Notes: a model not told the origin generated them from the sequence alone. DNA of 64,000 nt from Escherichia coli (GCF_003018255.1 NZ_CP027440.1); one strand, 5' to 3'; shown: positions 20,349 through 59,434, counted from the first letter of the stretch. Numbers and translations: made by a program.

Positions 20349-20390
20349 ACTTGTAAACCAAATTGAAAAGATTTAGGTTTACGAGTCTAC
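20349..20390. promoter_or_regulatory. bio operator (BirA site) within the divergent bioA/bioBFCD promoters
   Basis: cttgtaaaccaaattgaaaagatttaggtttacgagtctac, the imperfect palindrome TTGTAAACC...GGTTTAC, sits between the divergent starts. Confidence 0.8.
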
Positions 20391-22621: not shown

Positions 22622-23363
22622 TAAACAAGCCATTGCAGCGGCATTTGGACGGGCAGCCGCACACTATGAGCAACACGCCGATCTACAGCGCCAGAGTGCT
22701 GACGCCTTACTGGCAATGCTCCCACAGCGTAAATACACCCACGTACTGGATGCGGGTTGTGGACCAGGCTGGATGAGCCGCCGCTGGCGAGAGCGTCACG
22801 CGCAGGTGACTGCGTTAGATCTCTCTCCGCCAATGCTTGTTCAGGCACGCCAGAAGGATGCCGCAGACCATTATCTGGCGGGAGATATCGAATCCCTGCC
22901 GTTAGCGACTGCAACGTTCGATCTTGCATGGAGCAATCTCGCGGTGCAGTGGTGCGGTAATTTATCCATGGCACTCCGCGAGCTGTATCGGGTGGTGCGC
23001 CCCGGAGGCGTGGTCGCGTTTACCACGCTGGTGCAGGGATCGTTACCCGAACTGCATCAGGCGTGGCAGGCGGTGGACGAGCGCCCGCATGCTAATCGCT
23101 TTTTACCGCCAGATAAAATCGAACAGTCGCTAAACGCCGTGCATTATCAACATTATATTCAGCCCATTACGCTGTGGTTTGATGATGCGCTCAGTGCCAT
23201 GCGTTCGCTGAAAGGCATCGGTGCCACGCATCTTCATGAAGGGCGCGACCCGCGAATATTAACGCGTTCGCAGTTGCAGCGATTGCAACTAGCCTGGCCG
23301 CAACAACAGGGGCGATATCCTCTGACGTATCATCTTTTTTTGGGAGTGATTGCTCGTGAGTAA
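22608..23363 (+). CDS. bioC: malonyl-ACP O-methyltransferase
   Basis: ORF trimmed to [27 protein letters not shown] (251 aa) with SAM-binding LDAGCGPG; overlaps the bioF 3' end. Confidence 0.92.
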
Positions 23364-24033
23364 ATGTTATTTTGTCACCGGAACGGATACCGAAGTGGGG
23401 AAAACTGTCGCCAGCTGCGCGCTTTTACAAGCCGCAAAGGCAGCAGGCTACCGGACGGCAGGTTATAAACCGGTGGCCTCTGGCAGCGAAAAGACCCCGA
23501 AAGGCTTACGTAATAGTGACGCGCTGGCGTTACAGCGCAACAGTAGCCTGCAGCTGGATTACGCAACGGTAAATCCTTACACCTTCGCAGAACCCACCTC
23601 GCCGCATATCATCAGCGCGCAAGAGGGCAGGCCGATAGAATCATTGGTAATGAGCGCCGGATTACGCGCGCTTGAACAACAGGCTGACTGGGTGTTAGTG
23701 GAAGGTGCTGGCGGCTGGTTTACGCCGCTTTCTGACACTTTCACTTTTGCGGATTGGGTAACACAGGAACAACTGCCGGTGATACTGGTAGTTGGTGTGA
23801 AACTCGGCTGTATTAATCACGCGATGTTGACTGCGCAGGCAATACTACACGCCGGACTGACTCTGGCGGGGTGGGTGGCGAACGATGTCACGCCTCCGGG
23901 AAAACGTCACGCTGAATATATGACCACGCTCACCCGCATGATTCCCGCGCCGCTGCTGGGCGAAATTCCCTGGCTTGCAGAAAATCCAGAAAATGCGGCA
24001 ACCGGAAAGTACATCAATCTTGCCTTAATGTAG
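23356..24033 (+). CDS. bioD: dethiobiotin synthetase
   Basis: GTG-initiated (M)[19 protein letters not shown] with P-loop, 225 aa; the ORF track opens 6 nt upstream at a TTG. Confidence 0.9.
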
Positions 24034-24040
24034 TCATCCT

Positions 24041-24098
24041 GTAATTGGTTAAATTGCGAGCGAGATCGTGTCTCCGATTGACTGCAATTTAACCAATT
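24041..24098. repeat. long inverted repeat (15-16 bp arms, 26-nt spacer) just downstream of bioD
   Basis: gtaattggttaaattgc ... gcaatttaaccaattaa; no U-tract on either strand, so not a canonical intrinsic terminator. Confidence 0.7.
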
Positions 24099-24192
24099 AA
24101 ATTCTAAAAAAATCACGAAAAAAATTTTACCTCCGCATCATGCGGTGAATGTGGGAATTGCCCAGGCGGCGGGGGATAGGGGCTGCAGACAG

Positions 24193-24215
24193 TTATCCAC
24201 TATTCCTGTGGATAA
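24193..24215. promoter_or_regulatory. inverted pair of DnaA-box-like 9-mers upstream of uvrB
   Basis: ttatccact and tgtggataa (consensus TTATNCACA) in opposite orientation. Confidence 0.55.
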
Positions 24216-24519
24216 CCATGTGTATTAGAGTTAGAAAACACGAGGCAAGCGAGAGAATACGCGGCTTGCACGCGAATTGGCGTTAAAGACGGCTCAAAGA
24301 AATATCTTTTATTTTTTAACAGGTTAGATAATTGCAATGGCAGTCACTGAACAGGCATCTCTTGCCATAAAACTGTCATCAATCATCTTGACAAATGTTA
24401 AAAAAGCCGTTGCTTTGGGGATAACCCGGTAAGGCCGGAGTTTTATCTCGCCGCAGAGTAAATTTTGCTCATGATTGACAGCGGAGTTTACGCTGTAACA
24501 GAAATATTATGGTGATGAA

Positions 24520-24535
24520 CTGTTTTTTTATCCAG
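24520..24535. promoter_or_regulatory. LexA (SOS) box of the uvrB promoter
   Basis: ctgtttttttatccag fits CTGT-N8-ACAG, about 80 bp upstream of the uvrB ATG and overlapping a tataat-like -10. Confidence 0.75.
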
Positions 24536-24611
24536 TATAATTTGTTGGCATAATTAAGTACGACGAGTAAAATTACATACCTGCCCGCCCAACTCCTTCA
24601 GGTAGCGACTC

Positions 24612-26633
24612 ATGAGTAAACCGTTCAAACTGAATTCCGCTTTTAAACCTTCTGGCGATCAGCCGGAGGCGATTCGACGTCTCGAAGAGGGGCTGGAAGA
24701 TGGCCTGGCGCACCAGACGTTACTTGGCGTGACTGGCTCCGGGAAAACCTTCACCATTGCCAATGTCATTGCTGACCTTCAGCGCCCAACCATGGTACTT
24801 GCGCCCAACAAAACGCTGGCGGCCCAGCTGTATGGCGAAATGAAAGAATTCTTCCCGGAAAACGCGGTGGAATATTTCGTCTCCTACTACGACTACTATC
24901 AGCCGGAGGCCTATGTACCGAGTTCCGACACCTTCATTGAGAAAGATGCCTCGGTAAACGAACATATCGAACAGATGCGTTTGTCCGCCACCAAAGCGAT
25001 GCTGGAGCGGCGTGATGTGGTTGTGGTGGCGTCTGTTTCCGCGATTTATGGTCTGGGCGATCCTGATTTATATCTCAAGATGATGCTCCATCTCACGGTC
25101 GGTATGATTATCGATCAGCGCGCGATCCTGCGCCGACTGGCGGAGCTGCAATATGCTCGTAATGATCAAGCCTTCCAGCGTGGTACTTTCCGTGTTCGTG
25201 GCGAGGTGATTGATATCTTCCCGGCAGAATCGGATGACATTGCACTTCGCGTGGAGCTGTTTGACGAGGAAGTGGAACGATTGTCGTTATTTGACCCGCT
25301 GACCGGGCAGATTGTTTCCACTATTCCACGTTTTACCATCTACCCGAAAACGCACTACGTCACGCCACGCGAGCGCATCGTCCAGGCGATGGAGGAGATC
25401 AAAGAAGAGCTGGCCGCCAGACGTAAAGTGCTATTGGAAAACAACAAACTGCTGGAAGAGCAGCGGCTGACCCAGCGTACCCAGTTTGATCTGGAGATGA
25501 TGAACGAGCTAGGCTACTGTTCGGGGATTGAGAACTACTCGCGCTTCCTCTCCGGTCGTGGACCGGGTGAGCCACCGCCGACGCTGTTTGATTACCTGCC
25601 TGCTGATGGGCTGCTGGTGGTCGATGAATCTCACGTCACCATTCCACAAATTGGCGGCATGTATCGCGGTGACCGGGCGCGTAAAGAGACACTGGTGGAG
25701 TACGGCTTCCGCCTGCCATCAGCGCTGGATAACCGTCCGCTGAAATTTGAAGAGTTCGAAGCATTAGCGCCGCAAACCATCTATGTTTCGGCGACGCCGG
25801 GTAATTACGAGCTGGAAAAATCCGGTGGCGATGTGGTGGATCAGGTGGTGCGTCCAACAGGCTTACTCGACCCGATTATCGAAGTGCGGCCAGTGGCAAC
25901 ACAGGTGGATGATCTTCTTTCGGAGATTCGTCAGCGAGCGGCAATTAACGAACGCGTACTGGTTACAACTCTGACCAAGCGGATGGCGGAAGATCTCACT
26001 GAATATCTCGAAGAACACGGTGAGCGCGTGCGTTATCTTCACTCAGATATCGACACCGTCGAACGTATGGAGATTATCCGCGACTTGCGTCTGGGTGAGT
26101 TCGACGTATTGGTAGGGATCAACTTACTGCGCGAAGGTCTGGATATGCCGGAAGTTTCGCTGGTGGCGATCCTCGACGCTGACAAAGAAGGCTTCCTGCG
26201 TTCCGAACGTTCGTTGATCCAGACCATTGGTCGTGCGGCACGTAACGTTAACGGTAAAGCGATTCTCTACGGCGATAAGATCACCCCATCAATGGCGAAA
26301 GCGATTGGCGAAACCGAACGTCGCCGCGAGAAACAGCAGAAGTACAACGAGGAACACGGCATTACGCCGCAAGGCTTGAACAAGAAAGTGGTCGATATCC
26401 TGGCGCTGGGGCAGAACATTGCCAAAACCAAAGCGAAGGGCAGAGGAAAATCGCGACCGATTGTTGAGCCGGATAATGTGCCGATGGATATGTCGCCTAA
26501 AGCGTTGCAGCAGAAAATCCATGAACTGGAAGGGTTGATGATGCAACACGCGCAGAATCTGGAGTTCGAAGAAGCGGCACAAATTCGTGACCAGTTGCAT
26601 CAGCTGCGTGAGTTGTTCATTGCGGCTTCGTGA
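24612..26633 (+). CDS. uvrB: excinuclease ABC subunit B
   Basis: 673-aa [30 protein letters not shown] with Walker A GVTGSGKT and helicase motifs. Confidence 0.97.
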
Positions 26634-59404: not shown

Positions 59405-59434
59405 TTCTGCATGGTTATGCATAACCATGCAGAA
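59405..59434. repeat. perfect 30-bp palindrome; likely rhtA terminator in the far-upstream dps region
   Basis: ttctgcatggttatgcataaccatgcagaa lies 9 bp downstream of the rhtA stop and is followed on the minus strand by tttatcgctactttt. Confidence 0.6.

What the first reader, a model, noticed from the sequence alone, without database searches (positions are those of the whole stretch)
24041..24098. Long inverted repeat downstream of bioD with no terminator U-tract
Arms of 15-16 bp (gtaattggttaaattgc / gcaatttaaccaattaa) separated by 26 nt form a strong AT-rich stem-loop that neither strand follows with a U-run, and it is not REP-like. It could be a protein-binding palindrome, an RNA processing structure at the bio operon 3' end, or part of the uvrB upstream control region.
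Basis: seen in the sequence. Interest (0 to 1): 0.35.

Follow-up and report, generated by a model that had tools for sequence, protein, structure and literature searches.

The report
Escherichia-only hairpin after bioD
The inverted repeat is real: it is a single-copy, Escherichia-specific stem-loop that starts 8 bases after the bioD stop codon and lies 94 bases upstream of the DnaA-reactivating site DARS1. It most likely marks and protects the 3' end of the biotin-operon mRNA, which makes it an ordinary kind of element in an interesting neighbourhood, and its function is untested.

Summary
The window is E. coli (100% identical to LF82 here). The repeat is confirmed: perfect 16-nt arms at 24042-24057 and 24084-24099 with a 26-nt structured loop. 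It is the longest perfect inverted repeat in the 64 kb, and no simulated sequence matched it. It is single-copy in 5,424 of 5,426 E. coli genomes and matches no Rfam family.

Only a 13-bp core (TTGGTTAAATTGC/GCAATTTAACCAA) is shared across the genus Escherichia. The perfect 16-bp form is a minority allele. Citrobacter, Salmonella and Enterobacter have homologous sequence at the same spacing from DARS1 but no hairpin. Most of those genera also carry a convergent ABC-type ATPase gene between bioD and uvrB that Escherichia has lost.

Within Escherichia the core arms vary less than the loop and flanks. There are no double compensatory changes. Six of seven transition events keep pairing as G.U on the + (bio mRNA) strand only.

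The tail after the core stem is a weak, interrupted U-tract (UUAAAUUCU). The hairpin holds no DnaA, IHF, CRP or BirA site.

Best reading (about 0.45): a 3'-UTR stem-loop of bioBFCD mRNA that blocks exonucleases and is at most a weak terminator. Main rival (about 0.3): a functionless quasi-palindrome kept perfect by template switching. No 3'-end data could be retrieved. Interest is modest.

The parts
24031..24033 (+). bioD stop codon (TAG); the hairpin starts 8 nt downstream
   Evidence: ORF 23350-24033; LF82 annotation places bioD at 957-1634 of L002
24042..24057 (+). Left arm, TAATTGGTTAAATTGC. The genus-conserved core is 24045-24057; the outer 3 bp pair only in the LF82-type allele
24058..24083 (+). 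26-nt 'loop', itself structured: 2 extra pairs plus an inner 5-bp hairpin, GAUCG 24064-24068 with CGAUU 24075-24079. It contains the only GATC of the spacer (24064) and the decayed remnant of an ancestral TGTGA-N6-TCNCA palindrome (TGCGAGCGAGATCGTG, 24054-24069)
24084..24099 (+). Right arm, GCAATTTAACCAATTA. The genus-conserved core is 24084-24096
24097..24105 (+). Tail after the 13-bp core stem, UUAAAUUCU: a weak, interrupted U-tract (5 of 9 U)
24100..24130 (.). A/T-tract block (AATTCTAAAAAAATCACGAAAAAAATTTTAC). This is the family-wide conserved part of the spacer (consensus CAAAAAAAA..GATAAAAATTTTTT) at fixed distance from DnaA box I. It is context, not part of the hairpin
24193..24227 (.). 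DARS1 core: DnaA boxes I (24193-24201, +), II (24207-24215, -) and III (24219-24227, -), overlapping uvrB promoter P3. It lies 94 nt downstream of the hairpin
   Evidence: PMC6015884, PMC6868365, PMC11317965

Best explanation
The repeat acts as RNA on the + strand. It is a stem-loop in the 3' untranslated end of the bioBFCD transcript: a 13-bp core in all Escherichia, extended to 16 bp in LF82-type strains, with further pairs inside the loop.

With only a weak interrupted U-tract it is not a canonical intrinsic terminator. Its most likely job is to define and protect the mRNA 3' end. RNA polymerase may pause or terminate inefficiently there, or may stop further downstream (by Rho, or at the DnaA-bound DARS1 boxes). 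3'->5' exonucleases then trim back to the base of the stem, as described for Rho-dependent 3' ends in E. coli.

A side benefit would be less biotin-regulated transcription running into DARS1 and uvrB P3, 94 nt downstream.

Shown: the structure, its position, its restriction to Escherichia, reduced arm variation, and strand-asymmetric wobble changes. Inferred: that the RNA forms in vivo, that 3' ends map there, and any effect on mRNA stability or read-through.
For: - Position and orientation: the stem starts 8 nt after the bioD stop on the coding strand.
- Stability: -24.6 kcal/mol, z about -6, and kept in a 241-nt context.
- Every Escherichia lineage sampled keeps the 13-bp core, although flanking coding DNA differs by 3-21%.
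- The core arms have 6 of 26 variable columns, against 14 of 26 in the loop (Fisher p=0.045) and 54 of 92 in the other spacer columns (p=0.0017).
- The homologous columns are not conserved in 68 non-Escherichia genomes (mean information 0.24-0.29 bit, close to the loop's 0.20). A family-wide DNA motif therefore does not explain the arm conservation.
- Seven cells across three pairs change to G.U or U.G. By parsimony on the flank tree, 6 of 7 transition events preserve pairing on the + strand only (binomial p=0.06).
- Accordingly the + strand fold stays at -12.8 to -24.6 kcal/mol, while the - strand falls to -7.9 and -12.4 in two lineages.
- Salmonella, which also lacks the intervening gene, has its own canonical terminator-like hairpin 23 nt after bioD: GCAGGATC-agac-GATCCTGC followed by TGTTCTTTCG. 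A 3' structure there therefore appears to be needed once bioD no longer converges on another gene.
- Published rationale: strong transcription through DARS1 abolishes its activity, and the native locus shows very low transcription (PMC5010248).
- Stable stem-loops mark processed 3' ends of Rho-dependent transcripts (PMC6061677 abstract).
Against: - No mapped 3' end at this site could be retrieved. The Term-seq tables of PMC7815308 list none near the bio genes, and other supplements are not held or have no entry. The bio operon is poorly expressed in the conditions used, so this absence is uninformative.
- There are no double compensatory substitutions. The strand-asymmetry test rests on about 7 events and is not significant at 0.05.
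- Citrobacter koseri, C. amalonaticus and C. sedlakii also lack the intervening gene and show neither the E. coli hairpin nor a terminator-like hairpin after bioD (the fold scan shows only GC-rich structures further downstream). A 3' hairpin is therefore not obligatory.
- A long-read-based prediction groups bioB, F, C, D and uvrB in one transcription unit (bioRxiv 10.1101/2021.01.02.425006). Any termination at the hairpin is therefore incomplete.
- The downstream RNA is G-rich rather than C-rich (C/G 0.6 from 24114 on), which makes a nearby Rho site a poor fit.
- Perfect inverted repeats can be conserved without function, by template-switch correction (PMC5941160).
Confidence: 0.45

Rival explanations
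1. The repeat has no selected function. It is a quasi-palindrome that arose in a spacer remodelled after loss of the convergent ABC-ATPase gene. It is made and kept (near-)perfect by replication template switching, which copies one arm from the other.
For: - The hairpin exists only in Escherichia. The same block in Citrobacter, Salmonella and Enterobacter is homologous but not self-complementary.
- The ancestral sequence already had partial complementarity (..TGG..AA / TT..CCA..).
- The left arm is 12 of 16 identical to Citrobacter sp. R56, which is the background level. The right arm is only about 8 of 16 identical. That pattern is expected if one arm was rewritten from the other (my own reading of the sequences).
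- The LF82 allele differs from K-12 by a single change that perfects the repeat.
- There are no double compensatory changes.
- Published model: perfect inverted repeats in E. coli are over-conserved through biased template-switch correction (PMC5941160).
- Sister Citrobacter lineages with the same gene loss manage without a hairpin.
Against: - Template-switch correction should restore Watson-Crick pairs. Instead several lineages carry stable G.T (G.U) positions, all in the + strand-compatible direction.
- The 13-bp core has persisted through all sampled Escherichia species (3-21% flank divergence), while the adjacent loop and flanks drifted.
- Its placement immediately after a stop codon is where functional RNA hairpins lie.
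Confidence: 0.3
2. The repeat is a DNA-level element. It is either a binding site for a dimeric or tetrameric protein (half-sites 42 bp centre to centre, about four helical turns) or a cruciform-forming repeat. Either would modulate DARS1 or uvrB promoter P3.
For: - It lies 94 bp upstream of DnaA box I, inside what one laboratory defines as the 'DARS1 region'.
- The whole 170 bp upstream of box I keeps near-fixed spacing across the family. That suggests the phase relative to DARS1 matters.
- The sequence is AT-rich and therefore easily melted, with a DNA hairpin energy of -16.1 kcal/mol and z of -6.6.
Against: - No DnaA box (up to 2 mismatches), IHF site or CRP site lies in the hairpin.
- bioO has its half-sites in the opposite relative order and at a different spacing.
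- DARS1 works in vitro as a 70-bp fragment that excludes the hairpin (PMC6868365). The reported auxiliary flank is downstream of box III (PMC4585315).
- Arm changes are one-sided and break the DNA symmetry.
- A 26-bp spacer disfavours cruciform extrusion (established knowledge, not tested here).
- The arms are not conserved in other genera that have DARS1.
Confidence: 0.1
3. The repeat is an efficient but non-canonical terminator, possibly dependent on NusA, NusG or another factor. It evolved as an insulator that keeps bio-operon transcription out of DARS1.
For: - Transcription through DARS1 abolishes its activity, and native transcription there is very low (PMC5010248).
- In Escherichia, bioD came to lie only about 160 bp from DARS1 after the gene loss.
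- The hairpin is strong and is followed by a partial U-tract of 5-6 of 9 U.
Against: - The U-tract is interrupted by AAA right after two U residues. The stem is AT-rich (4 G-C pairs of 16) with a 26-nt loop, so it fails the consensus terminator scan.
- A predicted bioBFCD-uvrB co-transcript implies read-through.
- The sister Citrobacter lineages have the same geometry without a hairpin.
Confidence: 0.1
4. The hairpin functions in a minus-strand RNA, for example an antisense transcript of bioD starting from a relic of the lost gene's promoter.
For: - The - strand fold is as stable as the + strand fold in E. coli (-25.4 kcal/mol).
- The lost ABC-ATPase gene was transcribed leftwards from this region in other genera.
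Against: - No promoter-like site on the - strand lies upstream of the hairpin.
- All wobble substitutions become A.C mismatches on the - strand, and its fold energy drops to -7.9 and -12.4 kcal/mol in two lineages.
- There is no U-run after the stem on that strand.
Confidence: 0.03

Closest known systems
Stem-loops at processed 3' ends of Rho-dependent or read-through transcripts in E. coli (Dar & Sorek 2018, PMC6061677), and mRNA-stabilising 3' hairpins in general
   Same: A stable hairpin just downstream of the last stop codon of an operon, on the sense strand, without a proper U-tract. The expected role is to block PNPase and RNase II.
   Different: No 3' end has been mapped here. The stem is unusually long and AT-rich with a structured 26-nt loop. 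The downstream RNA is not C-rich.
Canonical intrinsic (Rho-independent) terminator
   Same: Position after the stop codon, a hairpin, and some U residues in the tail (UUAAAUUCU).
   Different: The stem is AT-rich (4 G-C pairs of 16), the loop is 26 nt, and the U-tract is interrupted. It fails the consensus scan. By contrast, Salmonella has a canonical-looking terminator at the equivalent place.
REP/BIME and other dispersed intergenic palindromes
   Same: An intergenic inverted repeat at an operon end that could stabilise upstream mRNA.
   Different: It is single-copy in every genome, AT-rich, and has no sequence relation to REP.
DARS1 (DnaA-reactivating sequence 1) and the uvrB P3 control region
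   Same: The same intergenic spacer. The hairpin is included in the 'DARS1 region' numbering and in the delta-DARS1::cat allele of PMC4585315.
   Different: It contains no DnaA box and lies outside the 70-bp active fragment. It is absent from other genera that keep the DARS1 core.
Quasi-palindromes perfected by template switching (PMC5941160; PMC7202029)
   Same: A perfect or near-perfect inverted repeat whose alleles differ by changes that complete the repeat. The arms are more conserved than the spacer.
   Different: That model gives an origin and a maintenance mechanism, not a function. It does not predict the + strand-only wobble pattern.

Membership tests
Canonical intrinsic terminator | G+C-rich stem of about 5-14 bp with a short (3-8 nt) loop | tested here: not met
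   16-bp stem with only 4 G-C pairs and a 26-nt loop; not reported by the terminator scan
Canonical intrinsic terminator | U-tract (at least 5 U in 8) immediately 3' of the stem | tested here: not met
   E. coli tail after the 13-bp core is UUAAAUUCU (4 U in the best 8-nt window); after the 16-bp stem it is AAUUCUAAA. Borderline (5 of 8) in E. whittamii, E1V33 and SCPM-8794
Canonical intrinsic terminator | Lies downstream of a stop codon on the sense strand | tested here: met
   Starts 8 nt after the bioD TAG
3'-end protective stem-loop (processed or Rho-dependent 3' ends) | Thermodynamically stable hairpin in the 3' UTR | tested here: met
   -24.6 kcal/mol, z -5.8, and persists in 241-nt context
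3'-end protective stem-loop (processed or Rho-dependent 3' ends) | RNA 3' ends map at the 3' base of the stem; ends shift or extend in exonuclease or Rho-inhibited cells | not testable with these tools
   No entry for the bio locus in the retrievable Term-seq or long-read supplements
3'-end protective stem-loop (processed or Rho-dependent 3' ends) | Pairing maintained in evolution | tested here: inconclusive
   90% of cells paired, 9 of 16 pairs invariant, 4 pairs vary to G.U, 0 double compensatory changes; the shuffle control is not exceeded. Core arms are less variable than the loop (p=0.045). 6 of 7 transitions are + strand-compatible (p=0.06)
REP/BIME or other dispersed repeat, MITE | Multiple copies per genome | tested here: not met
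   Median of 1 place per genome in 5,424 genomes; no further copy in the window at up to 3 mismatches beyond chance
BirA operator (bioO-like) | TTGTAAACC-N16-GGTTTACAA arrangement (ACC/GGT facing inward, about 40 bp in total) | tested here: not met
   bioO in the window at 20350-20387. The hairpin has GGTTAAA on the left and TTTAACC on the right (opposite order), the site is 58 bp long, and a half-site matches at only about 5 of 9 positions
DARS1 functional element | DnaA boxes; lies within the fragment sufficient for ADP release | tested here: not met
   No DnaA-box match at up to 2 mismatches in 24036-24105; boxes I-III lie at 24193-24227; the 70-bp core fragment is sufficient in vitro (PMC6868365)
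Known RNA family (Rfam 15) | Covariance-model match at the gathering threshold | tested here: not met
   Only chance eukaryotic hits at E of 2 or more, far below gathering scores

The most novel reading that the evidence does not exclude
After Escherichia lost the convergent ABC-ATPase gene that separates bioD from DARS1 in most Enterobacteriaceae, this hairpin evolved as a lineage-specific insulator. It limits biotin-regulated read-through into the DnaA-reactivating site, so that replication-initiation control is shielded from (or deliberately tuned by) bio-operon activity.

One corollary follows. Published delta-DARS1 alleles delete from the first base of the hairpin core through uvrB P3. 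Their phenotypes, including the strong mouse-colonisation defect, may therefore not be due to the DnaA boxes alone.
Probability: 0.12. Interest if true: 0.55.

Novelty: new member of a known kind. Interest (0 to 1): 0.25.

Why it matters
On its own this is one more 3'-UTR hairpin, and specialists would not be surprised by it. It gains some interest from its neighbourhood. It is the only structure between a biotin-regulated operon and DARS1, a replication-control site that is inactivated when transcribed (PMC5010248).

The comparative work also shows three things that could be followed up.
- The bioD-DARS1 junction was rebuilt by gene loss in Escherichia.
- About 170 bp upstream of the DARS1 boxes keeps near-fixed spacing across the family and includes a strongly conserved A/T-tract block.
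- A widely used delta-DARS1 allele removes the hairpin and uvrB P3 together with the DnaA boxes, which matters when interpreting its phenotypes.

If the hairpin proves inert, it would be a clean natural example of a perfect inverted repeat arising from non-palindromic ancestral sequence.

Tried and rejected
- **Dispersed repeat, REP or MITE.** Rejected: single copy per genome.
- **Known RNA family.** Rejected: no Rfam match.
- **Relic of the lost ABC-ATPase coding sequence.** Rejected for E. coli. tblastn of the Klebsiella and Citrobacter proteins finds a 44-aa C-terminal relic only in Citrobacter sp. R56, and nothing in Escherichia. The 69-aa minus-strand ORF 23907-24116 has no Pfam match.
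- **Second BirA operator.** Rejected: half-sites in the opposite relative order and at a different spacing.
- **DnaA, IHF or CRP site in the hairpin.** None found. The ancestral TGTGA-N6-TCNCA palindrome seen in 25 of 74 other genomes has decayed to TGCGAGCGAGATCGTG in E. coli. It is not concentric with the big repeat; the centres are about 9 bp apart.
- **Integron attC-like or Xer/dif-like site (my own inspection of the sequence, no tool run).** The arms contain GTTAAAT and ATTTAAC, and an 8-of-10 match to the XerD arm of dif as I recall it. However, the motifs are in the reverse order to attC, and there is no XerC arm or central region. I treat this as a chance resemblance.
- **Published 3'-end data.** I searched PMC7815308, PMC6061677, PMC5927463 and PMC6131387 and found nothing for this locus. 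The older primary papers (van den Berg 1985, Fujimitsu 2009, Ju 2019) are not held.
- **Metagenome scan with an arm-independent anchor.** It returned only 12 E. coli-type sequences carrying already-seen alleles, so it added no power to the covariation test.
- **Whether the DARS1 fragment in the 'transcription through DARS1' experiment included the hairpin.** The primer table is not held.

Full report
**Observation.** The window is E. coli. A 751-bp query spanning the site is 100% identical to strain LF82 and 95-99% identical to most of 5,424 complete genomes. bioD ends at 24033 and uvrB starts at 24612.

The repeat finder confirms a perfect inverted repeat: arms 24042-24057 (TAATTGGTTAAATTGC) and 24084-24099 (GCAATTTAACCAATTA), 26 nt apart.

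It is the longest perfect inverted repeat with a 3-40 nt loop in the whole 64 kb. Sixty Markov simulations gave none with arms of 16 or more, and 0.08 per simulation with arms of 13 or more.

As RNA it folds to -24.6 kcal/mol on the + strand and -25.4 on the - strand, with z-scores of -5.8 to -7.3. As DNA it folds to -16.1 kcal/mol. It is retained in the MFE and centroid folds of a 241-nt context. The 26-nt 'loop' is itself structured, with two extra pairs and a 5-bp inner hairpin.

It is single-copy in every genome and matches no Rfam family.

**What varies.** K-12, E. coli B and most strains have TAT instead of TAA at the outer end of the left arm. This gives a 13-bp core, then a T.T mismatch, then 2 bp. 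Only 590 of 5,424 genomes are identical to the window over the 69-nt query. The '15-16 bp' perfect repeat is therefore a minority, mostly B2-type allele. The feature common to the species is the 13-bp core TTGGTTAAATTGC / GCAATTTAACCAA.

After that core the + strand tail is UUAAAUUCU, with 5 of 9 U, or 6 of 9 in three other Escherichia species. 'No U-tract' therefore holds for the - strand but only partly for the + strand. The tract is weak and interrupted, and the element fails a consensus terminator scan.

**Comparative anatomy.** A BioD-anchored scan of one genome per species returned 80 loci.

- In Klebsiella, Enterobacter, Kosakonia, the C. freundii complex and most other genera, the bioD-uvrB gap is about 1.4 kb.
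- That gap holds a convergent minus-strand gene of about 240 aa, whose 3' end overlaps the bioD 3' end. It is an orphan ABC-type ATPase: Pfam ABC_tran at 6e-23, and best NCBIfam match UrtE, which is below the curated cutoff.
- Escherichia, C. koseri, C. amalonaticus, C. sedlakii, Intestinirhabdus and Salmonella lack it, with gaps of 563-650 bp.
- Citrobacter sp. R56 keeps a 44-aa relic.

The roughly 450 bp upstream of uvrB (window 24153-24611) is 68-77% identical across the family.

The segment that carries the hairpin is also ancestral. In genomes with the ATPase gene it lies upstream of that gene's start. It reads AAAATGGTGAAAATGCGAGCAAGATCTCG...CGTTAGCTGATAAAAATCAAAAATTAGCGATAATTTTTTTTTA in Citrobacter, and it is at nearly the same distance from DnaA box I in all genera.

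There it is not an inverted repeat. The left arm of E. coli corresponds to AAAATGGTGAAAATGC (12 of 16 identical). The right arm corresponds to about GCGCTGTTAGCTGATA (about 8 of 16). The hairpin is thus an Escherichia-genus innovation built by substitution on pre-existing sequence, at the junction left by the gene loss.

**Evolution within Escherichia.** I aligned eleven sequences (ten distinct): five E. coli alleles, E. albertii, E. whittamii and four unnamed Escherichia lineages. Their flanking coding DNA differs by 3-21%.

- Variation: the 13-bp core arms have 6 of 26 variable columns. The loop has 14 of 26 (Fisher p=0.045). All other spacer columns have 54 of 92 (p=0.0017).
- Control: the homologous columns are not conserved in 68 non-Escherichia genomes, with information 0.24-0.29 bit against 0.20 for the loop. 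A family-wide DNA motif therefore does not account for the arm conservation.
- Pair counts: 90% of cells are paired, 9 of 16 pairs are invariant, and four pairs vary to G.U or U.G. There are no double compensatory changes, and the observed values do not exceed the shuffle control.
- Events: mapped by parsimony on the flank tree, the core shows about 7 transition events. Six preserve pairing as a wobble on the + strand only, and these would be A.C mismatches on the - strand (binomial p=0.06). There are also 2 pair-breaking transversions.
- Fold energies: the + strand stays at -12.8 to -24.6 kcal/mol in all lineages. The - strand falls to -7.9 and -12.4 in two of them.

This is suggestive, not conclusive, evidence for constraint on a + strand RNA structure. 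A metagenome scan with an arm-independent anchor added only known E. coli alleles.

**Neighbourhood.** The spacer is one of the best-studied in E. coli.

- DnaA boxes I-III of DARS1 lie at 24193-24227. They overlap uvrB promoter P3, and the LexA-regulated P1 and P2 lie near 24520-24580.
- DARS1 works in vitro as a 70-bp fragment (PMC6868365). Its reported auxiliary flank is downstream of box III (PMC4585315).
- The hairpin is 94 nt upstream of box I and contains no DnaA, IHF or CRP-like site.
- It does not resemble the BirA operator once orientation and spacing are considered.
- The delta-DARS1::cat allele of PMC4585315 has a left homology arm ending ...CTGTATT. The deletion therefore begins at the first base of the core left arm and runs to just before P2, removing the hairpin, DARS1 and P3 together.
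- PMC5010248 reports that strong transcription through DARS1 abolishes its activity and that the native locus is transcriptionally quiet.

**Interpretation.** The most economical reading is an RNA stem-loop at the 3' end of bioBFCD mRNA. Its position, strand, stability, genus-level retention and the direction of the wobble changes all fit.

Salmonella also lost the convergent gene and has acquired a canonical terminator-like hairpin 23 nt after bioD. Because the E. coli U-tract is poor, I expect at most weak intrinsic termination. The main role would be as a barrier to 3'->5' exonucleases after polymerase stops further on, as described for Rho-dependent 3' ends (PMC6061677).

Read-through is likely. 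A long-read-based prediction joins bioBFCD and uvrB in one unit. I put this reading at about 0.45.

The chief rival, at about 0.3, is that the repeat has no function. Perfect inverted repeats in E. coli are reported to be over-conserved through template-switch correction (PMC5941160). The greater divergence of the right arm from the ancestral sequence and the single perfecting change in LF82 fit that origin. So does the absence of a hairpin in the sister Citrobacter lineages with the same gene loss.

Origin by template switching and later use as an RNA structure are not mutually exclusive.

The remaining readings are weaker, for the reasons tabulated in the rival explanations:
- a DNA-level role (about 0.1);
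- an efficient non-canonical terminator acting as an insulator for DARS1 (about 0.1);
- a minus-strand RNA (about 0.03).

**What is missing.** No experimental 3'-end data for this locus could be retrieved. The older primary papers on the uvrB upstream region and on DARS1 are not held. I therefore cannot exclude that the dyad was noted in the 1980s sequence papers.

**Verdict.** This is a real, statistically exceptional, Escherichia-specific hairpin of a familiar kind (a 3'-UTR stem-loop). Its function is unproven, and it sits in a neighbourhood that makes a simple experiment worthwhile. Interest 0.25.

Noticed in passing
L074:3165-3887 (-), L012:3165-3890 (-); absent from the window between 24033 and 24612: Most Enterobacteriaceae carry a convergent, orphan ABC-type ATPase gene of about 240 aa between bioD and uvrB. 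It is UrtE/LivF-like but below the family cutoffs, and it overlaps the bioD 3' end. Escherichia, Salmonella and the C. koseri/amalonaticus/sedlakii group have lost it. Citrobacter sp. R56 (L016) keeps a 44-aa relic.
   Followed up: partly
window 24100-24130; the same offset in L011-L084: The A/T-tract block (consensus CAAAAAAAA..GATAAAAATTTTTT; E. coli CTAAAAAAATCACGAAAAAAATTTTAC) is the most conserved part of the spacer across 68 non-Escherichia genomes (mean 0.91 bit). It sits at near-fixed distance, about 65-95 bp, upstream of DARS1 DnaA box I. It could be an intrinsic bend or an unrecognised DARS1 or P3 flank element. I did not find it described in the DARS1 papers I could read.
   Followed up: partly
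about 138 nt upstream of DnaA box I in L019, L022, L025-L032, L038, L040, L042, L048, L052-L059, L062, L063, L066, L070; E. coli equivalent at window 24054-24069: A palindromic TGTGA-N6-TC(N)CA motif (CRP-like, usually containing GATC) sits at a constant offset in 25 of 74 genomes. Nearly all of them (Enterobacter, Kosakonia, Lelliottia, Silvania, Siccibacter and relatives) retain the ATPase gene. It has decayed to TGCGAGCGAGATCGTG in E. coli, where it spans the end of the left arm and the start of the loop.
   Followed up: partly
L035:3211-3240 and L036 (Salmonella enterica subsp. diarizonae and arizonae): Salmonella has a canonical terminator-like hairpin 23 nt after bioD: GCAGGATC-agac-GATCCTGC followed by TGTTCTTTCG. 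E. coli has nothing equivalent.
   Followed up: partly
window 24045-24487 (K-12 equivalent): The published delta-DARS1::cat allele (PMC4585315) deletes from the first base of the hairpin core to just upstream of the uvrB P2 LexA box. It therefore removes the hairpin and promoter P3 as well as the DnaA boxes, which is a possible confounder for its fitness and mouse-colonisation phenotypes.
   Followed up: partly
window about 24378; L004:2980 onward (E. coli ZH063): One strain has a prophage (a terminase large subunit gene is adjacent) inserted in the bioD-uvrB spacer. The insertion lies downstream of DARS1, between P3 and P2, after ...AAAACTGTCAT.
   Followed up: no
window 24192-24216: The head-to-head DnaA boxes I and II of DARS1 form a 9-bp inverted repeat followed by CATGTGTATT, which the scan flags as terminator-like. 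The same hit occurs in Salmonella and Citrobacter. It might contribute to stopping read-through from bio or P3-upstream transcripts.
   Followed up: no
window 59405-59434: This is the only other perfect inverted repeat with arms of 12 or more in the window: TTCTGCATGGTTA-tgca-TAACCATGCAGAA, a 30-bp perfect palindrome with no T-run immediately after it.
   Followed up: no
window 24153-24611: The whole roughly 450-bp region upstream of uvrB is 68-77% identical across Enterobacteriaceae genera, which is unusually high for non-coding DNA. An invariant TGGGAATTGCCCAG (24152-24165) occurs within Escherichia.
   Followed up: no
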